From Escherichia phage adrianh: a stretch of 64,000 nt of DNA. The stretch lies in the sequence record MN850614.1, one strand, 5' to 3'. The notes under the pieces were generated by a model. That model was not told where the DNA came from. It ran no database searches and saw only the letters and a list, made by a program, of their open reading frames with translations. The translations under genes and the position numbers were made by a program. Positions within the stretch are counted from its first letter, which is position 1, and each line of letters starts with the position of its first letter. Positions 1-15,354 of this stretch are shown here, piece by piece.

Positions 1-154
1 GGATGACTCATGGGTTGCTGGTATCTCTTACATCTCTACAGCAGATGGTAAAATCTACGCAAGACCTTATGAGATGTTCAATGAAGAAAATTGGGAAGTT
101 TTAGACAGAAAACAAGCCTTAGAAATGATAAAGAAAGGAGAAATCACACTATGA
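1..154 (+). CDS. 3' end of upstream gene (partial, hypothetical)
   Basis: Open frame running in from window start, stop TGA at 152-154 overlapping next ATG (ATGA). Confidence 0.3.
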   Translation, partial: DDSWVAGISYISTADGKIYARPYEMFNEENWEVLDRKQALEMIKKGEITL

Positions 155-1224
155 TTAACCAGCACCCAATCTTTTTAGGTGGTGAGAGAAAAACTTTTGA
201 CTCACTTAATAAGCACTACCCAAAAATCTTTGAACTTTATAAACAACAAAAAGCACAAGACTGGTCAGAAGATGAGTTCCCTTTTGAGCAATCACGTCTT
301 GATTTTGAGAGTGTGCCAGCATCAATGTCAGGTGTAATGCTTGAGATTCTTAAGTGGCAGTGGGAAGCAGATACCCAAGTTGCTAAGAGCTTGGCATTCG
401 CCTTTGCACCATTCATCTCTGATGATATTTATGCAACTGCAATTATGAAGCAGTCTGAGATTGAAAACCTACATGCTCTAACTTACTCGGAGATTGTAAG
501 GCAATGTATTAAAAATCCTGAAACAATCTTAGATGAGATTAACCAGAATGTTGCTGTGCAAGACCGATTAAAAACTGTGAATCGTGTTCTTGAAGAATTA
601 CTGGATGAAGGTATAAACTATCGTCTGAGTTATGTGCGTGACTCACTTCTGGACAAAGACCCTTTACACTTCCATAAAGTGATTCTGAAAGGTCTATTTG
701 CAGTGACTGCACTGGAAGGAATATCTTTTATGGCATCCTTTGCATGTACTTTTGCACTTGATGCTCAAGATAAATTTCAAGGTATTGCTCAAGCTGTCCA
801 GAAAATTATGCTTGACGAAATCCTTCACACTAAAATTGATATTGAAGTTTTAAAAGAAACTTTAAGAGATGATGAGTGGCAAAAAGCTTTCCAACAAATT
901 CTTCCAGAGATTAAAGTAATCTTAGATGAAGTAGTTGAAAGTGAAGAGAAATGGTCGTATTATATCTTCTCCGAAGGACGTGCTGTAGTTGGGTTAAATA
1001 CAAAGCTTCTTCATGAGTGGGTTTACTATAATGCTGCCCCACTGTATGATATGTTTGGCATTCCCAGAGATTTTGTAGCTCCTAAAGAACCACCTTTGAA
1101 GTATATGATTAAGAAGATGGAAATTGATAAAGAGCAGAATGCTAATCAGGAGCAACAGAACGGTGCGTACCTGTTGAATACTGTTGTAGACGATTTGAAT
1201 AGTGGATTTTTAGAGGTTCCTTAA
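151..1224 (+). CDS. nrdB: Ribonucleotide reductase small subunit (class I beta, R2-like)
   Basis: GGAG RBS before ATG 151; two ExxH motifs (EIENLHALTYSEI, LDEILHTKIDIE) typical of di-iron R2 fold; track ORF 91..1224 trimmed. Confidence 0.7.
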   Translation: MINQHPIFLGGERKTFDSLNKHYPKIFELYKQQKAQDWSEDEFPFEQSRLDFESVPASMSGVMLEILKWQWEADTQVAKSLAFAFAPFISDDIYATAIMKQSEIENLHALTYSEIVRQCIKNPETILDEINQNVAVQDRLKTVNRVLEELLDEGINYRLSYVRDSLLDKDPLHFHKVILKGLFAVTALEGISFMASFACTFALDAQDKFQGIAQAVQKIMLDEILHTKIDIEVLKETLRDDEWQKAFQQILPEIKVILDEVVESEEKWSYYIFSEGRAVVGLNTKLLHEWVYYNAAPLYDMFGIPRDFVAPKEPPLKYMIKKMEIDKEQNANQEQQNGAYLLNTVVDDLNSGFLEVP

Positions 1225-1466
1225 TGACTTATGTAATTTACTCCAAAACTGGATGCCCTCAGTGTGAGACTGCAAAGAATTTTGCAAAAGCTCGTGGTAT
1301 TGACCACGTTGTGAGAATGTTAGGGCAGGATTATGAGCTATCAGACCTGATGGATATTGCACAGATGCCAGTTCGTCAGATGCCATTCATCATGAAAACT
1401 GATGGACAAAACCTAAAACCTGTTGGTACGCTACAGAATTTTATGGCAGAGGTGAATAATGCTTAA
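1224..1466 (+). CDS. Glutaredoxin/NrdH-like thioredoxin-fold redoxin
   Basis: 80 aa, CPQC active-site motif near N-terminus, sits between RNR genes. Confidence 0.7.
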   Translation: MTYVIYSKTGCPQCETAKNFAKARGIDHVVRMLGQDYELSDLMDIAQMPVRQMPFIMKTDGQNLKPVGTLQNFMAEVNNA

Positions 1467-1665
1467 ACGCCTTTGGGAAGGTTTGGTTGTTGATGCACCA
1501 GCTATTGTGATTGGTATGCTTATTGTTAACCTATTTACTGACTTTGAACAAGGTTCATTGTTTGGAGCCATGTTACTATGGGTTATCTTTGAAATATTAG
1601 AGATACAGTTAGGTATCACTGAAAAACTAAGAGAACTCTTTGCGAAGTTTTCTAAAAAGATTTAA
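1459..1665 (+). CDS. Small hydrophobic protein (hypothetical)
   Basis: 68 aa ORF, hydrophobic core, overlaps stop of upstream gene. Confidence 0.35.
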   Translation: MLKRLWEGLVVDAPAIVIGMLIVNLFTDFEQGSLFGAMLLWVIFEILEIQLGITEKLRELFAKFSKKI

Positions 1666-1713
1666 AATGAAAGGGTCTCTTCGGAGACCTTTTTAGCATG
1701 TAAAGGGGCAATA

Positions 1714-3858
1714 ATGAACAAAGTACAGATTATTAAAAAGAATGGCTCACTCGAAGAACCTGATATCAAAAAAGTTTTAGCAGCAGTCACAAAGTCAGCT
1801 AATAGGGTTGGGTATAAAGAACTTCCACCAGATGTTACCCAAGCTCTTGAGTCAGCATTTATGAGGATTCTGGTAAAATCTACTAAGCAGAATAATTTAC
1901 TCATTTCAGTAAATGATATTCACAGTATTGTTGAAGGTGCTTTGGCAGAAGTCAATCACGAGATTTATGAGTCTTACTCAACATATAGAAATTACCGTAA
2001 AGAGGTTGCTCAAAATTGGGATGAACTCTACCAGAAGACCAAAGATACACTCTTCTTAGGTGACCGAGAAAACGCTAATTTTGACAGCAGTTTAATTTCT
2101 ACAAAAGGCTCAATTATTCGTGGTTACCTGACTAAAGAAATCTTTAAACAGTACCACCTAACACCAGAGGAACTTGAAGCCATTGAAAAAGGGTTTATCT
2201 ATATCCATGATTTAAGAGACCTGATTTTTGGTGGTATCAACTGTTGCTTGTTTGACATTGGTAAAGTGCTGAAAGGTGGCTTTGAAATGTCTGGCATTGA
2301 ATACTGTGAACCGAAGTCTGTACTGTCAGCCTTACAGGTTATTGGTGATGTAGTTCTTTCAGCAACTGCACAGCAATTTGGTGGCTTTACTTTAGCAGAG
2401 ATTGATAAGGTACTTGTACCGTATGCTAAGAAGTCTCTACGTTACCATGCTGAAAAAGCAACAGCTTATGGTATTCCTAAAGAACATTACCACAACTATG
2501 TCATGGAGCAGCTACAGATTGAATTAACTCAAGGTTTTCAGTCTCTTGAAATGAAGCTCAATACTGTGCCTTGTAGCCGTGGTGATTTTGCATTCACAAC
2601 TTTGACATTCGGGTTACTTGACTCAGATATGTCTAATGAAGATAACCGACTGCAATACATGATTGCAAGCACTCTCCTAGATGTTCGTATGAATGGACAA
2701 GGTAAGAGCAAGAAGCCTGTTGTATTCCCTAAACTGGTTTATATTTATGACCAGAAGAGACATAATGAGAATATCTGTCAAGGCCACCTGTACAGTAAAG
2801 CTATTGAGTGTTGCTCTAAAGCAATGTATCCAGATTTCTTAAGTGTGTCTGGTCATGGTGCTGTAGCTGAAGCTTTTGAGCGTTCTGGTAAGGTAATTTC
2901 CCCGATGGGTTGTAGAGCCTTCTTATCACCATATCTTAACGAGAATGGGGAAGAGTTCTATGTAGGTCGTGCTAACATTGGTGCTGTGTCTTTGAACTTA
3001 CCAATGATTTACCAGTATTCTAAAGAGAATGGTTTAGATTTCTGGAAAGAGCTTGATAAGTACCTAGAGATGATTCGCAGCTTCCACAAGAAACGCTACG
3101 AAATGATTGCTAATATGCCAGCAAGTTCTAACCCTCTTGCATTCACACAAGGTGGTCTGTACAAAGGAACTAAGAAACCTACTGACAAGGTTGGTTGGGA
3201 TATCGTGAAGTCCTTCACAGCTTCTTTTGGGGTTACTGCTCTTGATGAGCTGTCTGTTCTTGCTGAAGGTAAACGACTTCATGAAGTTGGAAGCTATAGT
3301 TTTGCATACGATGTTCTGGCATACATTAACATGAAAACTGAAGAGTTTAAGAATGAAGATGGCTTCTTGTATGCGGTATATGGCACTCCAGCAGAGTCAT
3401 TATGTGGAACTCAGCTAAAACAATTCAGAGATATGTTTGGCGTTATCAAAGGTGTCTCTGACAAGGAATACTTTACAAACAGTTTCCATATGAATGTTGC
3501 AGCAGACATCTCACCATTTGAGAAGCAGGACTTAGAAGAGCCATTCTTCCATATCTGTAGAGGTGGTAGAATCCAGTATGTCAGAGTAGCTAACCCAGAA
3601 AACTTACCAGCACTTAAAAGCTGTATTACAAGAGGGATGTTGAAAGGTTTCTATCAGGGACTTAACTTTGACTTAGCAATCTGTGAACATTGTGGTAACA
3701 GACCAAAGGCTGATGTTGAAGAATGTGAGGTTTGCCATTCACATGACATCTCTGTGATTAACAGGGTGTGCGGATATCTGGGATGGACTAAGATTAAAGG
3801 TGAATCCCGAATGAATGATGCAAAAATCGCTGAGATTCGTGACAGGATTTCTATGTAA
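1714..3858 (+). CDS. nrdD: Anaerobic ribonucleoside-triphosphate reductase (class III)
   Basis: 714 aa; C-terminal Cys cluster CEHCGN..CEVCHSH and glycyl-radical motif RVCGYLG. Confidence 0.9.
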   Translation: MNKVQIIKKNGSLEEPDIKKVLAAVTKSANRVGYKELPPDVTQALESAFMRILVKSTKQNNLLISVNDIHSIVEGALAEVNHEIYESYSTYRNYRKEVAQNWDELYQKTKDTLFLGDRENANFDSSLISTKGSIIRGYLTKEIFKQYHLTPEELEAIEKGFIYIHDLRDLIFGGINCCLFDIGKVLKGGFEMSGIEYCEPKSVLSALQVIGDVVLSATAQQFGGFTLAEIDKVLVPYAKKSLRYHAEKATAYGIPKEHYHNYVMEQLQIELTQGFQSLEMKLNTVPCSRGDFAFTTLTFGLLDSDMSNEDNRLQYMIASTLLDVRMNGQGKSKKPVVFPKLVYIYDQKRHNENICQGHLYSKAIECCSKAMYPDFLSVSGHGAVAEAFERSGKVISPMGCRAFLSPYLNENGEEFYVGRANIGAVSLNLPMIYQYSKENGLDFWKELDKYLEMIRSFHKKRYEMIANMPASSNPLAFTQGGLYKGTKKPTDKVGWDIVKSFTASFGVTALDELSVLAEGKRLHEVGSYSFAYDVLAYINMKTEEFKNEDGFLYAVYGTPAESLCGTQLKQFRDMFGVIKGVSDKEYFTNSFHMNVAADISPFEKQDLEEPFFHICRGGRIQYVRVANPENLPALKSCITRGMLKGFYQGLNFDLAICEHCGNRPKADVEECEVCHSHDISVINRVCGYLGWTKIKGESRMNDAKIAEIRDRISM

Positions 3859-6560: not shown

Positions 6561-6831
6561 AGAGAAGTGGGAGATTTTACCACTAGTCAGTGAGGGTGGT
6601 AATGGCTGTGAAATGTACATGATACGTGGGCATGTTCCAGAACCAATTGCACTTGAGATGGTAAACAATTTTACAGATGGCTCTTACAAAGATTTAGGAG
6701 AACCAACTGTCAAGCAACAATGGGTTAAACCTGTACCAGACAGCACAGGTAACTGTAGTGTACTTTATCACGTTGTAGACCCTGCAAAATGCAAATCTGC
6801 AATGGCAGTAACAAACGTAACTTTTGATTGA
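6553..6831 (+). CDS. Hypothetical protein
   Basis: Track ORF 6526..6831, first ATG at 6553. Confidence 0.4.
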   Translation: MAKEKWEILPLVSEGGNGCEMYMIRGHVPEPIALEMVNNFTDGSYKDLGEPTVKQQWVKPVPDSTGNCSVLYHVVDPAKCKSAMAVTNVTFD

Positions 6832-6841
6832 GAGAAAAACT

Positions 6842-7723
6842 ATGAAGACATCTATTCGTGTTATAATTCATTCACCGACAAAAGGGTCTCATGAAGAAGA
6901 GTTTAACATCATCCAGTTCCCTTCTGGTGAGATTGGTGGACACTTTTCACAAGAGCTTGTTGATTTTACTGCTTATGCAGCATCATCTATCAACAATGTG
7001 ATTATGATTGTAAAAGGTTATGATAAGGACACATTGTTTGCTGTGGCACTCGCTAAAGAAGCAATTGATGATTTAATTCCTCATGATTATGCCTTAAAGA
7101 CTGTCATCTTTTACTACTTACCAAATGCACGATATGACCGTCACATGTTTAAAGGTGATGCAGCAGCTTTGAAGGTTTTTGCTAAACAGGTTAATGCAAT
7201 GGGGTTTGGTGCAGTATGTGCAGTTGACCCTCACAGCTATGTACCAGATAACCTGTTTGACTGCTTCCAAAGTATTCCTCAAAATGAAATTGCAGTCCAC
7301 TATGCAAATGACCCACTGGTTGATTACTTAGTAGCCCCAGATGCAGGTGCTGCTAAGAAGATTGCAGAGACTGCTAAAGAGGTGGATAAACCATATATCA
7401 CAATGTCTAAGGTGCGCAACCTTAAAACTGGTGAAATTACTGGTATGCGAATCCTTGATGATGTTGATTTGACCGATAAAACTGTTATGATTCTCGACGA
7501 CATCTGTGATGGCGGTCGAACCTTCATAGAAGCAGCTAAACATCTTCGTGAAGCAGGTGCAAAACGTGTGGAACTCTATGTAACACATGGTATCTTCTCT
7601 AAAGGGGTTGAAAACCTTCTTGACAATGGTATTGACCACATCTACACTACAAACTCTTTAGGGGAAGCTAAAGACCGTGGTTTAACACATTATGGTCAAG
7701 TTACTGTAGCAAACCTTGATTAA
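6842..7723 (+). CDS. Prs-family pyrophosphokinase (PRPP synthetase homologue; candidate ADP-ribose pyrophosphokinase)
   Basis: YLPNARYDR, AVDPHS and MILDDICDGGRT motifs align with bacterial Prs; ATG 6842 (track used TTG 6824). Confidence 0.85.
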   Translation: MKTSIRVIIHSPTKGSHEEEFNIIQFPSGEIGGHFSQELVDFTAYAASSINNVIMIVKGYDKDTLFAVALAKEAIDDLIPHDYALKTVIFYYLPNARYDRHMFKGDAAALKVFAKQVNAMGFGAVCAVDPHSYVPDNLFDCFQSIPQNEIAVHYANDPLVDYLVAPDAGAAKKIAETAKEVDKPYITMSKVRNLKTGEITGMRILDDVDLTDKTVMILDDICDGGRTFIEAAKHLREAGAKRVELYVTHGIFSKGVENLLDNGIDHIYTTNSLGEAKDRGLTHYGQVTVANLD

Positions 7724-7732
7724 AACTTTATA

Positions 7733-7755
7733 GGGGGCTTTCAAGCCCCATTTTG
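7733..7755 (+). terminator. Hairpin between Prs-like and NAMPT-like genes
   Basis: GGGGGCTT / AAGCCCC stem followed by ATTTTG. Confidence 0.4.
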
Positions 7756-7769
7756 AGAGAGATTAAAAG

Positions 7770-9551
7770 ATGACTAAATCACTTTATGCAGTACCAGCAG
7801 GTTTAAACGCAGATGCTTACAAATCTGGTCATGTTTACCAGTACCCTAGTGCAACAGATTACTTGATGTTTAACCTGACACCACGTAGTGATAAATGGTT
7901 TAACAGCCCTTTAGCAATTGATGGTGTAGTGGCTTTTGGTATTCAACGTTTTGTTAAAGATTACTTAATAGACCACTGGAACGCCACCTTCTTTGAACGT
8001 GACAAAAAAGAAGCAATTGATGAAATCTTAGAAGTCATGAACGGTGTTCTGGGTAAAGATGCTATTGGTCGAGAACATTGGGAAGCACTTCACGACTTAG
8101 GTTATCTACCAGTTGAAGTATACGCTGTAGAAGAAGGTACAGTTGTCCCTATGCGTGTTCCAATGATTGTATTCCAGAACACTGTTTCAGGTTTCCATTG
8201 GGTAGCGGGATATCTGGAAGATGCTTTCTCTGCTGAGATTTGGAAGGCTTGTACCATTGCAACTATTGCATTGCACTACAAACGTATCTGTAAGAAGTGG
8301 TCTGACCTTACTTGTGACAACGACTTGCATTTACCTTATCAGTGCCATGACTTTGCTATGCGTGGTATGTCCGGCTTTACCGATGACGCATTTAACGCTG
8401 TAGGTCACTTAACCAGCTTTAAAGGGACTGATAGCTTCCCTGCTGTGTATACAGCTAAACGCATCTATGGGCAGTCCTATCCAATTTCCGATATTGGTGG
8501 TTCTGTACCAGCCACTGAACACTCTGTCATGTGTGCAAACATTGCTTGGGAAGGTGGGAATGAGTTAATTGAAGAAGAAAGACGCTTTAAAGGTGAGTTA
8601 CAAACCTTCCGTCGTTTCTTAACAGAAACTTACCCAACTGGTATTGTAAGTATTGTTTCAGACACTTATAATTTCTGGAGAACTGTATCAGTGATACTCC
8701 CAGAACTCCGTAAAGAGATTATGGAACGTGATGGCAAACTGGTAATTCGTCCTGACTCTGGCGACCCTGTACATATTGTCACAGGTTATAAAGCAATCCA
8801 CTTAGAGTGTGCTAAAAAGGCTTATTACGAACACCTAAGCAAGCTTGAAGCCAGCGACACAATGTTGAATACTGTTCTGAACATGAAGCTTGAAAACATC
8901 AACTACGGCATTGCTGGGTGGCTACTGTCAGAAGGTTACGAAATGGTTGTTGACAGAGAAGACTTTGAAGTTGCTGATACAGTGATGTTGAAAAATGCTT
9001 ATATGGTTGGTTCTGCAAACGTTGTAACACGTCCTGTAGCAGAGATTGATGGAGCTATCAAGACACTGTATAACATCTTTGGGGGAACTATCAACTCTAA
9101 AGGTTTTAAAGTACTGGATGAGCACATCGGACTTATTTATGGTGACTCTATCACGTTGGAACGTGCAAACGAAATCTTGAAGCGTTTGTATGAAATGGGT
9201 TTTGCAAGCTCTAACGTAGTGTTTGGTGTAGGCTCTTACACTTACCAGTACATGACTCGTGACACCTTTGCATTTGCTGTCAAAGCAACTCTTGCAAGCA
9301 TTGGTGGTAAAGAGATTATGCTTGCAAAAGACCCTAAAACAGATAGTGGTGTTAAGAAATCTGCCTTTGGTGGTGTAGCACCTATGTGGGATGGTGATAA
9401 GCTGAAAGCTGTAGATGGCTATGGATTCCAGAGTTTTGCAGATGTACTTGACCACCAAGCTTGTGCTTTACGTTTAGTCTTTAGCGACTCTGAGCAGTTC
9501 GGTTATACAACTCTTGGAGATATTCGAAATAATATTGACAAGCAGCTTTAA
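7770..9551 (+). CDS. Nicotinamide phosphoribosyltransferase family protein (NAMPT/NadV-like; candidate Namat)
   Basis: 593 aa; HDFAMRG, FKGTDS, SVPATEHS, IVSDTYN, IRPDSGDP and IYGDS blocks match NAMPT as recalled. Confidence 0.85.
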   Translation: MTKSLYAVPAGLNADAYKSGHVYQYPSATDYLMFNLTPRSDKWFNSPLAIDGVVAFGIQRFVKDYLIDHWNATFFERDKKEAIDEILEVMNGVLGKDAIGREHWEALHDLGYLPVEVYAVEEGTVVPMRVPMIVFQNTVSGFHWVAGYLEDAFSAEIWKACTIATIALHYKRICKKWSDLTCDNDLHLPYQCHDFAMRGMSGFTDDAFNAVGHLTSFKGTDSFPAVYTAKRIYGQSYPISDIGGSVPATEHSVMCANIAWEGGNELIEEERRFKGELQTFRRFLTETYPTGIVSIVSDTYNFWRTVSVILPELRKEIMERDGKLVIRPDSGDPVHIVTGYKAIHLECAKKAYYEHLSKLEASDTMLNTVLNMKLENINYGIAGWLLSEGYEMVVDREDFEVADTVMLKNAYMVGSANVVTRPVAEIDGAIKTLYNIFGGTINSKGFKVLDEHIGLIYGDSITLERANEILKRLYEMGFASSNVVFGVGSYTYQYMTRDTFAFAVKATLASIGGKEIMLAKDPKTDSGVKKSAFGGVAPMWDGDKLKAVDGYGFQSFADVLDHQACALRLVFSDSEQFGYTTLGDIRNNIDKQL

Positions 9552-9949: not shown

Positions 9950-10290
9950 AAATTATGAAAATCAAAGAAATGAACATCAATATTGTCTTAGAAGAACGCT
10001 GGGAGAACATCAAGAAGCCTGAAAATGGTCATAAGTTCCTCAACAAAATCTTAGTAGCAGCTAAAGAGGAACTGACTGGCAAGGTTGCAGCGGCAATCAC
10101 AATAAAGGTGTGTGTGAAAGGTCTTCCAGACAATCACCAATTTGCACTTGACGAGTTTAAAGAAAGCTTCTACAATCCAAACAAACAGATGCTTGAAAGT
10201 AACTTTGCAGTATCTACAAGTATCGTCCATGACAGAAGCTTTATCCTTTACAAGAATATGAGAGGTGAGTTATGCAAGCATATTGGATAG
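9943..10290 (+). CDS. Hypothetical protein
   Basis: 115 aa ORF. Confidence 0.45.
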   Translation: MVKIMKIKEMNINIVLEERWENIKKPENGHKFLNKILVAAKEELTGKVAAAITIKVCVKGLPDNHQFALDEFKESFYNPNKQMLESNFAVSTSIVHDRSFILYKNMRGELCKHIG

Positions 10291-10448
10291 AAATTTTACT
10301 GTCACTTGGTAGTGTAGCAGTGTTCGTATACCTTCTTTGCAAGTACTACGCAGAGCACAAAAAATGTGACTTCTGTAATGGGGAAGGTTATACAAGAGTA
10401 GGCTGTTGCCCTATATGTGGTGGTTCTGGTAAAATGTTTAATAAGTAA
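10272..10448 (+). CDS. Small membrane protein with CxxCxGxG zinc-ribbon (hypothetical)
   Basis: 58-codon ORF below track cutoff; GAGGTGAG RBS; hydrophobic N-term then CDFCNGEG..CPICGGSG. Confidence 0.45.
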   Translation: MQAYWIEILLSLGSVAVFVYLLCKYYAEHKKCDFCNGEGYTRVGCCPICGGSGKMFNK

Positions 10449-10476: not shown

Positions 10477-12843
10477 ATGCGCATGGTAAATGACCACGCA
10501 GAAGTGATTAAGAGTTCAACTTCTTTAGAGACGTCTCAAGCACAGATTACAATGACACCCGAAATGTTCAGCCTTTTGAGTTCTGGTGTATACACCTTTA
10601 AAGAAAGGGCAGTTATTCGTGAACTGTCATGTAACGCAGTAGATGCTCAGAAAGAGGCTGGAAAAGAGAACATTCCGTTCCATGTGCATTTACCTACTCG
10701 TTTTGAGCCTTACTTTGAAGTTCGTGATTTTGGAACTGGATTGACTCATGATAAAGTTATGAGTTTGTATCTAAACTACGGGGCTTCTACGAAGAATGAC
10801 TCTAATGACTACATTGGTGCAATGGGTATCGGCTCAAAATCCCCATTTGCAATTGCTCAGTCATTCACAGTGTCCAGTTATGTTGATGGTGTTGTTAATA
10901 AGTACTCTGTTTATCTTGAGAATGGTATTCCTCAAGTAACTAAGCTGACCACCAACCCAACAAAAGAACCTAATGGTTTAGCTGTACGTGTAGCAGTTGC
11001 TGACCATCGTATCTCAAAGTTCTTTGAAGAGGCTGGTCACGTATACTCATACTTTGCTGTAAAACCGGAAAGTAATATCGAGTATGACGATGTATTGTCA
11101 GATATGAACGTCATTGCCCGTGAAGAAGGTGTTTATGATGCCATGATTCATAAGCAAAGCTGGCGTTCTAGTGGTAACAGGACAGAGTTTAATGTAGTGA
11201 TGGGTAACATTGCCTACCCTGTTAACATGGAAGCATTACTTGGTGATGATTTCTTCAAAGTCTTGCCAGAATTTTTCCGTAGGAGCGTAGACCTTGTAAA
11301 CATCTATATGCCTATTGGTTCAGTTGCTATTGCAGCTTCTCGTGAAGCATTGCAGATGAATGATACAACAAAAAATGTTATCATTGAGGCTACTAAAAAG
11401 ATAACTGAAGCAATTACAAAGGATGTTATCAAGAAAGTTAACAACCAACCTACACTCATGGATGCTGCACAGGCTTATGCTGAGTTACGTTTGAACTCAC
11501 GAGAGATGTTTAATGCTGTGTGTCCAAAGCTAGAGTGGGGAGGCATTAAGCTTGATTCTCTGGAAGAAGAATTACTAAACATTCGTCGTGGGATTATCTA
11601 CGCAGAAGACGGCTCAGTCATTTATGAACGTGACGGTAAAGGTAATATCAAGGTTGATAGGAACGGGAACAATATCCCTAAAGTGGATTATCTTTATAAT
11701 CCAGTTGCTTATGTCAAGTTCAACTCTTTAGAGAGTAAGATTCGTGCAACAGCACTTTCCTACACTCAAGAGGCAAGTATGTTCAATATCTTTGGTGCAA
11801 TGCGTAAAAGCCAAATTGAACAGTTTTTGTTCGTGATTAATGACCGTCGTAATAAAAATGGCACTGAGAAGACTGTAGGCCGCAATCAGATTCTGCGTGG
11901 TGCATGTCGAGACTACGCTAACGAGTCAAGCCTGTTCCACAGATACAATGGTATTGTGTTTGTATTCTCGACTGAAAAAGAGTTAGATGATTTAATCAAT
12001 CTACACAAGCTTGATAAAAGTTTGTTAAAGATTGTGAAGATGTCTGATAAGGAACACCATTATCAGCGTAAAGAAGCTGTGAGGGGTGTTGTAAAACTCT
12101 GGAAAGCTGTTCCATCAGAAACTAAAGCTTCATACACAGAGGTGTCAGAAGACCTAGATACAATTGAAGAACCCCAGCTTTATATCAAGGCAGTAGGCGA
12201 CACAGTTGATGGTGAATGTTTTTGCTCATCCCCAGAAGATGTAGCTAAAACAATTGCTAATGTTATAGGAAAAACAGTCTATGTTTTCCGAAAAGCAAAT
12301 TGGAAAAAGATACCAGAAGACTGGATTGAAGTAGATGAGAAGCTATTGAATGACAGCTTAACTGATGTTCACTGGATTAATCATAACAGGTATATGACAC
12401 GTATCTATATGAATGGTGTCCTTGACCTTACAAGTAGTTGGATTATTGCCAGAAACTTTACGTTTAATAACAAGAAGATTTCTCGCGGGTATTGCTATTC
12501 ACGAGATACAAACAAAACCATCTTCTTAGAAGGTAATGAGAATGCTGTTGAGGCAATGTTTGGTAAGATTCAGTATGTGGCTGCACCGTTTGCATACACT
12601 TACACTATCAGTGTTCTTCAGGATTTGAAGTCATGCCTTGACAATGATACAAAACTGTACAAAAAGATTAAGAAAGCGGGTGACCGCATGGTTATCAAAC
12701 TGACAAACTATCTTTCAAAAAGAAAACAAGAAAACTTCTTGCTTTCTCATTTAGATTGGAATAAAGTGTCACCCATCGAAGTGAGTAAGTTCTTAGGTTT
12801 TGATGTGAAGTGTGTTCCAGAAGGAACTACAATTTACGATTAA
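10477..12843 (+). CDS. rIIA: GHKL-ATPase protein, rIIA-like
   Basis: 788 aa; N-box ELSCNAVDA, G1 box DFGTGL, G2 box GAMGIGSKS; large size and position before rIIB-like gene. Confidence 0.55.
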   Translation: MRMVNDHAEVIKSSTSLETSQAQITMTPEMFSLLSSGVYTFKERAVIRELSCNAVDAQKEAGKENIPFHVHLPTRFEPYFEVRDFGTGLTHDKVMSLYLNYGASTKNDSNDYIGAMGIGSKSPFAIAQSFTVSSYVDGVVNKYSVYLENGIPQVTKLTTNPTKEPNGLAVRVAVADHRISKFFEEAGHVYSYFAVKPESNIEYDDVLSDMNVIAREEGVYDAMIHKQSWRSSGNRTEFNVVMGNIAYPVNMEALLGDDFFKVLPEFFRRSVDLVNIYMPIGSVAIAASREALQMNDTTKNVIIEATKKITEAITKDVIKKVNNQPTLMDAAQAYAELRLNSREMFNAVCPKLEWGGIKLDSLEEELLNIRRGIIYAEDGSVIYERDGKGNIKVDRNGNNIPKVDYLYNPVAYVKFNSLESKIRATALSYTQEASMFNIFGAMRKSQIEQFLFVINDRRNKNGTEKTVGRNQILRGACRDYANESSLFHRYNGIVFVFSTEKELDDLINLHKLDKSLLKIVKMSDKEHHYQRKEAVRGVVKLWKAVPSETKASYTEVSEDLDTIEEPQLYIKAVGDTVDGECFCSSPEDVAKTIANVIGKTVYVFRKANWKKIPEDWIEVDEKLLNDSLTDVHWINHNRYMTRIYMNGVLDLTSSWIIARNFTFNNKKISRGYCYSRDTNKTIFLEGNENAVEAMFGKIQYVAAPFAYTYTISVLQDLKSCLDNDTKLYKKIKKAGDRMVIKLTNYLSKRKQENFLLSHLDWNKVSPIEVSKFLGFDVKCVPEGTTIYD

Positions 12844-12848
12844 AGTGT

Positions 12849-12878
12849 TTGACAAGGGGCTTCGAAGCCCCTTAGAAT
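12849..12878 (+). promoter_or_regulatory. Sigma70-like promoter with hairpin in spacer
   Basis: TTGACA, 18 nt spacer containing AGGGGCTTCGAAGCCCCT hairpin, then TAGAAT. Confidence 0.45.
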
Positions 12879-12922
12879 AGCCTTACAAAATGATTTATTA
12901 ACTAACAAGAGAGAGTAATAAG

Positions 12923-14032
12923 ATGACTACTAAAACTAAAGCACAGATTGACGCAGAAATTTACGAACTGGTTAAAGAAGGTAAGCTGACTAAAACAGCT
13001 ATTGCACAGAAGTTCAATACTTCAACCCGTTCAGTTGGTCGTGCTGTAGAGCGTCATGAAGCAACCTTAAAAGGTAAGAAAAAGGTAGCTTCTAAACCAG
13101 CTACGAAGACTTTGAAGCAAGTTGCTAAATCAGTTAAAAAGAAAGCTGACAAACCAGTTGAAAAGGTTGTTAAAGAGCCTGTACAGAAAGCTCCGGTAAA
13201 TAAACTGCATGAAGCTATGCAGAATGGCAACCAGATTGAGTACATGATTACTGGCGACTCTGTTATCATGACTTTCGGTGCAGATTCTGAAATCGTTGAA
13301 TCTACCCATCCGAACTACAAAGAAATCGTGATGGCTGTTGTATCCGGTGAGTATAAGAAAGCTTTCGAACTGATGAACATTCGTAAGTCTATCGAAAACT
13401 TCACTCAGGGTGCTATCACCATCAAAGGTGACAAGTTATTCTATGGTGCTGTTGAGATGCGTTCTACTCTGGTTGACCGTATTCTTCACATGATGAAGAC
13501 TGGAGATAAGGGTTTTGAACGCCTTGTGATGTTCTTCGAAAAACTGATGGAAAACCCATCTAAAGACTCTGTAGAACAACTTTGGGGATTCGTATCTCAC
13601 CTTGATGTTGAAATTGATGAAGAAGGCTACATCATTGGTTGGAAGAAAGTCTCTACTCATGAAGGCAAGCTGGTTGACTCCCACACCTACAGAGTACCTA
13701 ATGATTTGGGTAACATTGTAGAAATGCCACGTTGGATGGTTGATAATAACCGTAACGTGACTTGCTCTCAGGGTCTTCACGTTGGTGCTTGGGATTATGT
13801 TCGTTGCTTCTCAGGTGATACAATCCTGAAGGTTCGTGTCCATCCACGAGATGTTGTATCTGTTCCAACTGATTACAACGATATGAAGATGCGTTCGTCT
13901 CGTTATGAAGTTGCAGCAATCGTTGATAATCAACGTAAAGTGCTGAAAGAATGGGATGGCAAGACTGAAGCTTTGCATGTCATCGTTGGCACTGCTGGTG
14001 AACTAATCTCCCAACGTAAACGTGAAATCTAA
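12923..14032 (+). CDS. rIIB: rIIB-like protein (by synteny)
   Basis: 369 aa, directly downstream of rIIA-like gene; Lys-rich linker; no diagnostic motif. Confidence 0.35.
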   Translation: MTTKTKAQIDAEIYELVKEGKLTKTAIAQKFNTSTRSVGRAVERHEATLKGKKKVASKPATKTLKQVAKSVKKKADKPVEKVVKEPVQKAPVNKLHEAMQNGNQIEYMITGDSVIMTFGADSEIVESTHPNYKEIVMAVVSGEYKKAFELMNIRKSIENFTQGAITIKGDKLFYGAVEMRSTLVDRILHMMKTGDKGFERLVMFFEKLMENPSKDSVEQLWGFVSHLDVEIDEEGYIIGWKKVSTHEGKLVDSHTYRVPNDLGNIVEMPRWMVDNNRNVTCSQGLHVGAWDYVRCFSGDTILKVRVHPRDVVSVPTDYNDMKMRSSRYEVAAIVDNQRKVLKEWDGKTEALHVIVGTAGELISQRKREI

Positions 14033-14047
14033 TAAGTAATTTCTTAA

Positions 14048-14072
14048 AAGGCTGCTTCGGCGGCCTTTTTTA
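14048..14072 (+). terminator. Rho-independent terminator (UUCG tetraloop)
   Basis: GGCTGC TTCG GCGGCC then TTTTTT. Confidence 0.6.
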
Positions 14073-14132
14073 TTTGTATTTTGTGCAGAGTGCTGTATAA
14101 TTGTTGTCACGATAAACTAAACAGGAGAACCA

Positions 14133-14681
14133 ATGAAGAAATTGATTCTAGGTTTGTGCTTAATGTTTACAGCACACTTATCTTATGCAGTTGACTGCCC
14201 AGAGCTATCAATTAGCCAAAAAGTAAACATGTTAAAAGCTTACCAGTATGGTGAGAATAACATGGGTAAAGGTTGGGGTATCACTCTAGCTGCTATAGCC
14301 TTACAAGAGTCAGAGTTAGGTCTGAAGGTAGAGAATAAAAAGACACATGATTATGGTATCTTCCAGAATCACTTGAAGACTGTTGTAAAGCGTAACAAAA
14401 TCAGTCCTAATGTGGCTAAAAAGAAACTCTTAAAAGACTTTGACTATGCTGCTAAGGAAACTCACAAAGAGCTTGAGTTTTGGACAAAGGTGCATGGTCA
14501 GCCAAAGTCAAAGAAGACTTTACAAAAAGTCTTAGCATCATATAATGCTGGGTATTCGTACAGAATCCCTAAAGCTAAGAAATATTCTCAAGATGTTTAT
14601 AACAATATGAAAGTAATTGCTCAATGTGAATTTGCAACAAACATTTCTAAGGTAAACCATGAAAAAATTAAGAAAGTCTGA
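14133..14681 (+). CDS. Secreted lytic transglycosylase (SLT domain)
   Basis: Signal-peptide-like N-terminus; SLT motifs LQESELG, GIFQ, SYNAGY. Confidence 0.55.
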   Translation: MKKLILGLCLMFTAHLSYAVDCPELSISQKVNMLKAYQYGENNMGKGWGITLAAIALQESELGLKVENKKTHDYGIFQNHLKTVVKRNKISPNVAKKKLLKDFDYAAKETHKELEFWTKVHGQPKSKKTLQKVLASYNAGYSYRIPKAKKYSQDVYNNMKVIAQCEFATNISKVNHEKIKKV

Positions 14682-15354
14682 TGAAGTATTGTGCCATGCT
14701 TATGACTTACATCCTCATGAGTTAGTTCTTGATTCCTGTGTATGGACTCCAGAACAGTGCAGGGATTTTGAAGACACCGCAAGAGAAGTTGTATGTTCAC
14801 TTGAAGAGTTCCACACATCAGAGCCAATTGTGAATGTTGTAGATAAAGAGACTGGACAAACTATAGGTGTAAGTCGTGATAGCTTAGTCATAGTCAATAA
14901 AGACCTTGTAGAAAAAGGTAACCTCATCTTAGCAGATATTGATGGTGTTCTTACAAATTTTAATCACGAAGATTGCTCAACGGAATTGACTGATGGGTCA
15001 TTCTCACAGTACACTAATCTTCTTGACTCTGTAAGAGCAAAACCAACGTATGTCTTTAGTATTATTGATGCAATTGCTAATCATGCTGCCATTGGACTCT
15101 TGACAGCGAGAGGTGAATCTCAGAGAATACCTACTGAGATGTTTTTAAGGCACAATATAGAGCATGATTACTTGCTTTTTATGCGTGGTTTTGGAACTAA
15201 CTCTATAAGTGCAGAAAGTTTGAAAGTGAGGATGATTCAGTCTTGCATTCTTCCTTACTTTAATATAGTATGTTTTATAGAAGATACAGAGAAGAATGTT
15301 CAGAAGGTAAACAGAATCCTTCCACACATTAAAACCATGTTAGTTAAACACTGA
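14659..15354 (+). CDS. HAD-like hydrolase (hypothetical)
   Basis: 231 aa; LILADIDGVLT resembles HAD motif I (DxDG[TV]). Confidence 0.4.
   Translation: MKKLRKSDEVLCHAYDLHPHELVLDSCVWTPEQCRDFEDTAREVVCSLEEFHTSEPIVNVVDKETGQTIGVSRDSLVIVNKDLVEKGNLILADIDGVLTNFNHEDCSTELTDGSFSQYTNLLDSVRAKPTYVFSIIDAIANHAAIGLLTARGESQRIPTEMFLRHNIEHDYLLFMRGFGTNSISAESLKVRMIQSCILPYFNIVCFIEDTEKNVQKVNRILPHIKTMLVKH

What the first reader, a model, noticed from the sequence alone, without database searches (positions are those of the whole stretch)
10477..14032. rIIA-like protein carries a clear GHKL ATPase motif set
The 788 aa protein has N-box (ELSCNAVDA), G1 (DFGTGL) and G2 (GAMGIGSKS) motifs of the GHKL ATPase superfamily and is followed by a 369 aa gene, matching the rIIA/rIIB arrangement of T4-type phages, whose products counter prophage-encoded exclusion. 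An alternative identity as a topoisomerase or MORC-like ATPase cannot be excluded from motifs alone.
Basis: partly seen in the sequence, partly recalled or inferred. Interest (0 to 1): 0.4.

Follow-up and report, generated by a model that had tools for sequence, protein, structure and literature searches.

The report
Phage rIIA/rIIB anti-defence gene pair
These two genes are the already-known rIIA/rIIB pair of a Felix O1-like coliphage, used by many phages to escape bacterial suicide defences; the ATPase motifs in rIIA are real, conserved and closest to the Hsp90 chaperone, but this domain has already been described.

The parts
10477..12843 (+). rIIA gene (788 aa, stop included)
   Evidence: ORF. 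phrog_612 'RIIA' E=1e-188 covering aa 1-770. 98% identical to Bas63 g84, 63% to SUSP1 rIIA, and 32% to T4 rIIA over aa 24-317.
10546..11076 (+). rIIA N-terminal Bergerat-fold (GHKL) ATP-binding domain, about aa 24-200
10621..10647 (+). N-box / motif I, ELSCNAVDA (E49 predicted catalytic base, N53 predicted Mg2+ ligand, D56)
   Evidence: E49, N53 and D56 are invariant in 99 of 99 homologues. The motif aligns with HtpG RELISNASD.
10726..10743 (+). G1 box / motif II, DFGTGL (D84 predicted adenine contact)
   Evidence: D84 and G86 are invariant; G88 is present in 91 of 99. The motif aligns with HtpG DNGVGM.
10816..10842 (+). G2 box / motif III, GAMGIGSKS (ATP-lid glycines)
   Evidence: G114, G117, G119 and K121 are invariant. 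The motif aligns with HtpG GQFGVG.
11077..11511 (+). rIIA second (middle / transducer-like) domain, about aa 201-345
11338..11352 (+). SREAL loop (aa 288-292), with invariant R289/E290; candidate gamma-phosphate-sensing arginine
   Evidence: R289 and E290 are invariant and S288 is present in 97 of 99. A collinear BLASTP segment aligns it with HtpG 'NVSREILQ', E=0.027. The isolated-segment hhalign gives E=0.0024 and score 24.0, against a shuffled maximum of 20.9. The same single motif occurs in T4 rIIA, the RB43 fusion and HtpG.
11512..12840 (+). rIIA C-terminal lineage-specific region (about aa 346-788)
   Evidence: Confidently modelled, but alignable only within Ounavirinae-like phages. BLASTP finds no match to T4 rIIA here, and no PDB match was attributable to it.
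12849..12878 (+). Promoter-like site TTGACA-N18-TAGAAT in the rIIA-rIIB gap, with the palindrome GGGGCTTCGAAGCCCC (12856-12871) inside its spacer
   Evidence: Consensus scan scores 11 of 12; sequence read. This is a consensus match only, and function is not shown.
12923..14032 (+). rIIB gene (369 aa, stop included)
   Evidence: ORF. phrog_609 E=3e-88. 35% identical to T4 rIIB over 331 aa, E=5e-61. 88% identical to Bas63 g85 and 82% to SUSP1 rIIB.
12938..13072 (+). rIIB N-terminal helix-turn-helix domain (about aa 6-50)
13073..13201 (+). rIIB Lys-rich disordered linker (about aa 51-93)
   Evidence: pLDDT is below 50 for aa 57-89. Sequence composition shown.
13202..13942 (+). rIIB conserved core domain (about aa 94-340; precomputed Pfam PF26926 in homologues)
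   Evidence: High pLDDT. G235, V273, C281, G284 and P308 are invariant; R270, H286, Y292, D310, S313, D317, K322, R324 and Y328 are nearly invariant. The family has 9,248 clusters at 50% identity.
14046..14079 (+). Intrinsic-terminator-like hairpin plus T-run, 14 nt after the rIIB stop
   Evidence: 10-bp stem with 5 G-C pairs, a 4-nt loop, then TTATTTGTAT.

Best explanation
This is the rIIA-rIIB module of a Felix O1-like (Felixounavirus) coliphage. It is a conditionally required counter-defence pair that lets the phage grow in hosts carrying abortive-infection systems. Identity and orthology are shown here. The anti-defence role is inferred from experiments on near-identical and related orthologues: Bas63 g84/g85 against QatABCD, and SUSP1, T4 and N4 rII genes against lambda RexAB. 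The mechanism is inferred and is the least certain part. rIIA carries a catalytically intact two-domain GHL-type ATPase module that is closest to Hsp90. It has an N-terminal Bergerat ATP-binding domain (E49 as base, N53 as Mg2+ ligand, D84 as adenine contact, a G114-G119 lid) and a second domain that supplies an invariant arginine (R289, in the SRE loop). I propose that ATP binding closes rIIA into a clamp, as in Hsp90. In that state, together with rIIB, it would hold or remodel either the phage-made trigger or the defence effector, so that the suicide response is not launched. rIIB would work in the same complex: the genes are adjacent, they share one terminator, and they are fused into a single polypeptide in phage RB43. 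rIIB contributes a highly conserved core domain of unknown chemistry and, in this lineage, an N-terminal HTH on a flexible Lys-rich tether. My rough sub-probabilities are: identity about 0.98; anti-defence role about 0.8; ATP-dependent Hsp90-like clamp mechanism about 0.4.
Confidence: 0.8

Rival explanations
1. The 788-aa protein is the ATPase subunit of a DNA-manipulating GHKL enzyme (type II topoisomerase, MutL-like or MORC-like), and the downstream gene is its DNA-binding or cleavage partner.
Against: The full-length best match is rIIA at E=1e-188. The profile search of all PDB sequences returns only Hsp90-family chains and no GyrB, ParE, MutL or MORC. No Toprim, DNA_gyraseB, MutL_C or S5-CW domains were found. 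The invariant gamma-phosphate-sensor candidate is an Arg in an SRE loop, as in Hsp90; from my own knowledge, GyrB and MutL use a Lys at the equivalent position. The rIIB core matches no nuclease or cleavage fold.
Confidence: 0.02
2. The pair's primary role is lysis timing, as database labels such as 'RIIA/RIIB lysis inhibitor' or 'membrane integrity protector' suggest. It would delay or stabilise the membrane against premature holin-dependent lysis, and the anti-defence effects would be secondary.
For: The classical T4 r (rapid lysis) phenotype and the annotations. Lysis genes lie just downstream: an SLT-like lysin at 14133-14681 and spanins.
Against: Knockdown or deletion has no plating cost in hosts lacking the defence systems, in five phages and in Bas63. 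Neither protein has a transmembrane segment. An Hsp90-like ATPase and an HTH protein are not the kinds of protein known to act as antiholins (my own knowledge).
Confidence: 0.08
3. rIIB is a specific transcription factor acting through its N-terminal HTH, and rIIA is its ATP-driven regulator. The pair would reprogramme phage or host transcription, and escape from abortive infection would be an indirect result. Iyer et al. 2021 list rIIB among the phage transcription factors.
For: The HTH is confidently modelled and resembles sigma-70 region 4, DeoR and DnaA domain IV. rIIB is basic, with pI 9.2. The transcription-factor proposal is in PMC7824862.
Against: Only about 45% of aligned rIIB homologues have the HTH region, and most of the top 150 representatives start directly with the core domain. 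The family's conserved function therefore resides in the core, not the HTH. No operator-like repeat was sought or seen here.
Confidence: 0.1

Closest known systems
Bas63 (Escherichia phage JohannRWettstein, Felixounavirus) g84/g85 = rIIA/rIIB
   Same: Same genus, with identical gene order: PRPP synthetase, NAMPT, small ORFs, a 58-aa membrane ORF, rIIA, rIIB, lysin, PNK. rIIA is 98% identical with no gaps and rIIB is 88% identical.
   Different: The last ~450 nt of rIIB diverge sharply, at 80%, 82% and 59% nucleotide identity in successive 150-nt windows, which indicates a mosaic 3' end.
T4 rIIA / rIIB (the prototypes)
   Same: Same gene order and orientation. The rIIA N-terminal ATPase module shares all four motifs. 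rIIB is alignable over 331 aa, including the HTH.
   Different: Identity is only 32% (rIIA, aa 24-317) and 35% (rIIB). BLASTP cannot align the C-terminal ~460 aa of rIIA. The small upstream gene differs: T4 rIIA.1 (PF24210) versus a membrane zinc-finger ORF here. The host phage belongs to a different subfamily.
RB43 RIIA-RIIB fusion protein (ORF001c, 1,049 aa)
   Same: It contains both modules in the same N-to-C order: aa 33-300 resemble rIIA (37% identical) and aa 765-1038 resemble rIIB (33% identical).
   Different: It is a single polypeptide, whereas this window has two genes separated by a 79-nt gap that contains a promoter-like site.
Hsp90 family (HtpG, TRAP1, GRP94)
   Same: Same Bergerat ATP-binding domain with the same catalytic residues, a second domain, and an S-R-E-x-L arginine loop in the same order.
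   Different: rIIA has no Hsp90 C-terminal dimerisation domain. NCBIfam HSP90 scores 42.6 bits against a cut-off of 455. Beyond about aa 345 rIIA is unrelated to Hsp90. It has a dedicated partner, rIIB, rather than co-chaperones.

Membership tests
rIIA family (T4 rIIA; PHROG 612) | Significant, near full-length profile match to the family model | tested here: met
   phrog_612 E=1.1e-188, protein aa 1-770 on profile positions 1-716 of 725.
rIIA family (T4 rIIA; PHROG 612) | Homology to the T4 prototype | tested here: met
   BLASTP E=8e-37 and 32% identity, restricted to aa 24-317. The C-terminal half is not alignable.
rIIA family (T4 rIIA; PHROG 612) | Immediately followed by rIIB on the same strand | tested here: met
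   rIIB begins 79 nt downstream.
rIIA family (T4 rIIA; PHROG 612) | Dispensable in permissive hosts but required in hosts with RexAB or other abortive-infection systems | not testable with these tools
   Known only from the literature on orthologues: Bas63 (98% identical) against QatABCD and SUSP1 (63% identical) against RexAB.
rIIB family (PHROG 609; PF26926) | Profile match and homology to T4 rIIB across the core domain | tested here: met
   phrog_609 E=3e-88. T4 rIIB 35% identical over 331 aa, E=5e-61. All listed homologues carry a precomputed PF26926 hit.
GHKL (Bergerat-fold) ATPase superfamily | Motif I (ExxxNxxD), motif II (DxGxG) and motif III (GxxGxG), in that order and conserved | tested here: met
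   The motifs start at aa 49, 84 and 114. The key residues are invariant in 99 homologues.
GHKL (Bergerat-fold) ATPase superfamily | Bergerat alpha/beta sandwich fold | tested here: met
   [not shown]
GHKL (Bergerat-fold) ATPase superfamily | Reaches the curated Pfam HATPase_c gathering score | tested here: not met
   13.2 bits against a cut-off of 26.4, E=0.13. Some homologues carry precomputed PF13589 hits.
GHKL (Bergerat-fold) ATPase superfamily | Binds and hydrolyses ATP | not testable with these tools
   Requires biochemistry.
Hsp90 / HtpG family | N-terminal domain with the Hsp90-type signature | tested here: met
   A PDB-wide profile search hits only TRAP1, HtpG and Hsp90, best E=1.3e-5. 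hhalign against HtpG gives 94.5%, E=8e-8.
Hsp90 / HtpG family | Middle-domain catalytic loop with Arg (S-R-E-x-L-Q) | tested here: inconclusive
   SREAL at aa 288 is invariant and collinear with HtpG SREIL at aa 335. The isolated-segment hhalign gives only E=0.0024, score 24.0 against a shuffled maximum of 20.9.
Hsp90 / HtpG family | Full-length family architecture, including the C-terminal dimerisation domain, reaching the curated cut-off | tested here: not met
   NCBIfam NF010683 scores 42.6 bits against a cut-off of 455, covering aa 30-134 only. There is no similarity beyond about aa 345.
Type IIA topoisomerase ATPase subunit (GyrB / ParE / T4 gp39) | Sequence-profile match plus a Toprim domain or a partner DNA-cleavage subunit | tested here: not met
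   No such Pfam, NCBIfam or PDB-profile hits. The downstream gene is rIIB.
MutL / MORC ATPases | Sequence-profile match to the family, plus MutL_C or the S5-fold with CW / coiled-coil modules | tested here: not met
   [not shown]

The most novel reading that the evidence does not exclude
rIIA is a phage-encoded Hsp90-type ATPase with a split active site: the N-domain pocket plus the middle-domain arginine R289. Its ATP-driven clamp cycle, together with rIIB, would be what neutralises abortive-infection systems such as RexAB and QatABCD. That would turn the 70-year-old question of what rII does into a defined experiment with point mutants (E49A, N53A, D84N, R289A) and possibly Hsp90-type inhibitors. 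A weaker add-on: the conserved rIIB core, with its invariant Cys and near-invariant Arg, His, Tyr, Asp, Ser and Lys residues and marginal ADP-ribosyltransferase-fold hits, may be an enzyme rather than an adaptor.
Probability: 0.35. Interest if true: 0.5.

Novelty: already known. Interest (0 to 1): 0.15.

Why it matters
As a genome feature it adds nothing new. The pair is routinely annotated, its GHKL domain is published, and near-identical genes have been tested genetically. It has some value as a reminder that the biochemical mechanism of rII is still unknown. The analysis here narrows the ATPase to an Hsp90-like two-domain module with five invariant catalytic positions. The natural RB43 fusion supports the idea of an rIIA-rIIB complex. 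Together these give concrete mutants and assays for anyone who wants to settle how rII defeats RexAB- or QatABCD-type defences.

Tried and rejected
1. Direct phmmer of rIIA and rIIB against PDB sequences found nothing useful. The rIIB profile against PDB also found nothing.
2. I looked for rIIA-N/rIIB-C fusions among the long rIIB-family representatives P0382, P0352 and P0365. Their N-termini are not rIIA-like. The puzzling 1,055-position phrog_609 profile was eventually explained by the RB43 fusion.
3. I tested whether T4 rIIA.1 corresponds to the small ORF upstream of rIIA here. It does not; they belong to different families.
4. I tested whether the locus is enriched in homopolymer 'contingency' tracts, as reported for T4 rIIA. 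It is not: there is one A6 run in rIIA and none in rIIB, against a window background of 0.92 per kb.
5. Literature searches for an rIIA-Hsp90 link or for rIIA ATPase biochemistry returned only unrelated Fc-gamma-RIIA papers or nothing. No structural or mechanistic rII paper turned up.
6. The AlphaFold-database fold libraries were unavailable, so the rIIB core could be compared only with PDB and BFVD.
7. PADLOC gave only a weak GHKL-motif hit to TmtA, E=1e-8 over aa 20-134. I read this as shared superfamily, not as membership of a defence system.
Full report
OBSERVATION. The two ORFs are exactly as described: 10477..12843 + (788 aa) and 12923..14032 + (369 aa). The three motif strings are present at aa 49-57, 84-89 and 114-122. 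Both genes have plausible Shine-Dalgarno sequences. The opposite strand holds only short ORFs nested within them.

WHAT THE WINDOW IS. Megablast of the locus finds 276 phage records, 210 of them covering at least 80% of it. Nearly all are Felixounavirus phages of Escherichia, Salmonella or Shigella. The best hit is Escherichia phage garuso at 98.3% identity, where the genes are annotated 'rIIA protein' and 'rIIB protein'. The phage is therefore Felix O1-like (Ounavirinae), not T4-like.

IDENTITY OF THE TWO PROTEINS. PHROGs gives rIIA (phrog_612, E=1.1e-188, aa 1-770 on 716 of 725 profile positions) and rIIB (phrog_609, E=3e-88).

Against the T4 prototypes fetched from NC_000866, rIIA is 32% identical over aa 24-317 only (E=8e-37). 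rIIB is 35% identical over 331 aa (E=5e-61). These are true but distant orthologues.

A preprint states that the Bas63 proteins share '>80%' homology with T4 RIIA/B. The numbers above do not bear this out.

tblastn finds rIIA-like sequences in 2,925 of 50,697 phage records. Outside the Ounavirinae only the N-terminal ~40% aligns. This agrees with the published description of rIIA as an N-terminal GHKL domain plus a highly variable C-terminal region (Iyer et al. 2021, PMC7824862).

ARE THE GHKL MOTIFS REAL? Curated models do not reach their cut-offs. Pfam HATPase_c scores 13.2 bits against 26.4. NCBIfam 'HSP90 family' has E=2.8e-11 but scores 42.6 bits against 455, and the sacsin ATP-binding domain has E=4.8e-7. 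Three independent lines nevertheless confirm the domain.

(i) Conservation. In an alignment of 99 homologues with mean column identity 24%, E49, N53, D56, D84, G86, G114, G117, G119 and K121 are invariant.

(ii) Sequence profiles. A profile of that alignment, searched against every PDB sequence, hits 22 chains at E<1. All but one weak hit to a designed protein are Hsp90-family (TRAP1, best E=1.3e-5; HtpG; Hsp90). No GyrB, ParE, topo II, MutL, MORC or histidine kinase appears. hhalign against authentic E. coli HtpG gives probability 94.5% and E=8e-8 over 143 columns spanning the whole ATP-binding domain.

The long aligned lengths show that rIIA has the two-domain module typical of Gyrase/Hsp90/MutL-type enzymes: an ATP-binding domain plus a second domain.

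AN HSP90-LIKE ARGININE LOOP. The alignment has a second invariant cluster, G281...S288-R289-E290-x-L292. A second, collinear BLASTP segment aligns rIIA 257-315 with HtpG 308-362 and puts 'AASREALQ' on 'NVSREILQ' (E=0.027). From my own knowledge, HtpG R336 (R380 in yeast Hsp82) is the middle-domain arginine that contacts the ATP gamma-phosphate.

Regular-expression scans find RE[LI]xxNxxD, DxGxG[LM], GxxGxG and SRExL exactly once each and in the same order in four proteins:
- This rIIA: aa 48, 84, 114, 288.
- T4 rIIA: aa 46, 81, 117, 277.
- The RB43 fusion: aa 50, 85, 115, 277.
- E. coli HtpG: aa 33, 80, 121, 335.

I also tested the second domain alone. With the N-domain removed from both sides, hhalign again places SRE on SRE. 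The score is 24.0 (E=0.0024), against a mean of 12.0 and a maximum of 20.9 for 50 shuffled controls. That is supportive but not strong, so I rate this feature inconclusive.

rIIA is not a member of the Hsp90 family. It lacks the C-terminal dimerisation domain and fails the curated cut-off. Its ATPase module is nevertheless Hsp90-like rather than topoisomerase-, MutL- or MORC-like.

rIIB. The model (pLDDT 86.6) shows three parts: an N-terminal three-helix HTH (aa 6-50), a disordered Lys-rich linker (aa ~51-93, pLDDT below 50), and a compact alpha/beta core (aa ~94-340).

The core carries a strongly conserved polar set: R270, C281, H286, Y292, D310, S313, D317, K322, R324 and Y328. The family is very large, with 9,248 clusters at 50% identity. 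Most members lack the HTH, which is occupied in only about 45% of aligned sequences.

COUPLING OF THE TWO GENES. The genes are 79 nt apart. The gap holds a TTGACA-N18-TAGAAT match (12849-12878) with a 16-nt palindrome inside its spacer. A strong terminator-like hairpin (14046-14069, followed by a T-run) lies just after rIIB.

The odd finding that phrog_609 ('RIIB', 1,055 positions) matched rIIA at positions 31-299 and rIIB at positions 755-1048 has an explanation. Phage RB43 encodes a natural 1,049-aa rIIA-rIIB fusion. Its aa 33-300 align to this rIIA (37% identical, E=5e-44) and its aa 765-1038 align to this rIIB (33% identical, E=2e-47). A fusion of this kind is classical evidence that two proteins act together.

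FUNCTION FROM ORTHOLOGUES. Bas63 (MZ501086), a Felixounavirus, has the same gene order. Its g84 is 98% identical to this rIIA with no gaps, and its g85 is 88% identical to this rIIB. Deleting either gene reduces plating on QatABCD-expressing E. coli by 1e4-1e5-fold, and complementation largely restores it (PMC11482910).

CRISPRi knockdown of RIIA or RIIB in T4, MM02, EdH4, SUSP1 and N4 has no effect in Rex-free hosts but lowers plating on lambda RexAB hosts (PMC11879866). SUSP1 is an Ounavirinae phage. Its rIIA is 63% and its rIIB 82% identical to the proteins here, full-length and in the same synteny.

T6 RIIB is itself sensed by CARD/gasdermin defence systems and is toxic when expressed alone (PMC10312443). 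The neighbouring genes fit a counter-defence neighbourhood. PRPP synthetase and NAMPT lie just upstream, and their Bas63 counterparts g79/g80 counter Sir2-HerA.

MECHANISM (INFERRED). No paper I could search reports rIIA ATPase activity, a structure or a binding partner. The model I commit to has two parts. First, rIIA is an active Hsp90-type ATPase whose nucleotide-driven closure lets it clamp or remodel a client. Second, it does this together with rIIB, and the client is either the phage-made signal that the abortive-infection sensor reads or the defence effector itself, so the suicide response is not launched.

The invariance of all catalytic positions across very divergent phages argues that ATP turnover, and not just a scaffold, is under selection. 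Neither protein has a predicted transmembrane helix: the maximum Kyte-Doolittle 19-residue average is 1.29 for rIIA and 0.78 for rIIB. Any membrane association would therefore be peripheral or through partners. I put about 0.4 on this mechanism.

RIVALS. The topoisomerase/MutL/MORC reading is rejected: there is no profile match, no cleavage partner, and the sensor residue is an Arg rather than a Lys. A primary lysis-timing role is unlikely because the genes are dispensable in defence-free hosts. A transcription-factor role for rIIB (Iyer 2021) cannot be excluded for HTH-bearing members, but it cannot be the family's core function.

NOVELTY AND VERDICT. This is already known. The pair is routinely annotated, the GHKL domain is published, and near-identical genes have been tested genetically. 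The only increments here are the Hsp90-type placement with a candidate catalytic arginine and the use of the RB43 fusion as evidence of coupling. Interest is low (0.15).

Noticed in passing
window 10272..10448 (+): A 58-aa ORF ends 28 nt before rIIA. It has an N-terminal hydrophobic helix and two DnaJ-type CxxCxGxG zinc-finger motifs. It is a conserved phage family of unknown function (phrog_3931, E=8e-33). It is annotated 'putative membrane protein' in Bas63 (g83, 95% identical) and is present in SUSP1 (46% identical), but it is not annotated in the closest record, garuso. It is unrelated to T4 rIIA.1.
   Followed up: partly
window 12849..12878 (+): A near-consensus sigma-70-like promoter match (TTGACA-N18-TAGAAT) lies in the rIIA-rIIB gap. 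A perfect 16-nt palindrome, GGGGCTTCGAAGCCCC (12856-12871), fills its spacer. This could be an internal promoter for rIIB, an RNA hairpin or processing site, or both.
   Followed up: no
window 13572..14018 (3' end of rIIB) and around 11470 (within rIIA): There are mosaic recombination boundaries. Against Bas63, nucleotide identity falls from 95-100% to 80%, 82% and 59% in the last ~450 nt of rIIB. Against garuso, identity is 90-97% upstream of about 11470 and 99-100% downstream.
   Followed up: partly
[not shown]
   Followed up: partly
locus L007 (RB43, NC_007023) 1..3150 (-): This is a natural single-chain rIIA-rIIB fusion of 1,049 aa. It explains why the PHROG 'RIIB' model phrog_609 also matches rIIA N-terminal domains, a possible source of rIIA/rIIB mislabelling in annotations such as Klebsiella phage LAL003.
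   Followed up: yes
window 6824..9551 (+): A PRPP synthetase-like gene (6824-7723) and a NAMPT gene (7770-9551) lie directly upstream. This is an NAD+ salvage pair whose Bas63 counterparts (g79/g80) were reported to counter Sir2-HerA. The rII pair therefore sits within a run of counter-defence genes.
   Followed up: partly
literature, PMC11482910 (PhageMaP preprint): The preprint says Bas63 g84/g85 share '>80%' sequence homology with T4 RIIA/B. Measured identity of the 98%/88%-identical proteins here to T4 is 32% (N-terminal ~300 aa only) and 35%.
   Followed up: yes
window 11370..11375: There is a single A6 run in rIIA and no run of 6 or more in rIIB. The window background is 0.92 such runs per kb. 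So there is no sign here of the homopolymer 'contingency locus' reported for T4 rIIA.
   Followed up: yes
window 10477..10880 (rIIA aa 20-134): There is a weak PADLOC hit (E=1e-8) to TmtA, which PADLOC-DB lists among proteins of anti-phage defence systems. I read it as most likely shared superfamily motifs only.
   Followed up: no
window 14133..14681 and 14659..15354 (+): The downstream 'putative lysin' has a signal-peptide-like N-terminus and only a sub-threshold SLT transglycosylase match (E=9e-4). The next gene is annotated polynucleotide kinase in relatives but gives no Pfam hit at E<=1e-3.
   Followed up: no
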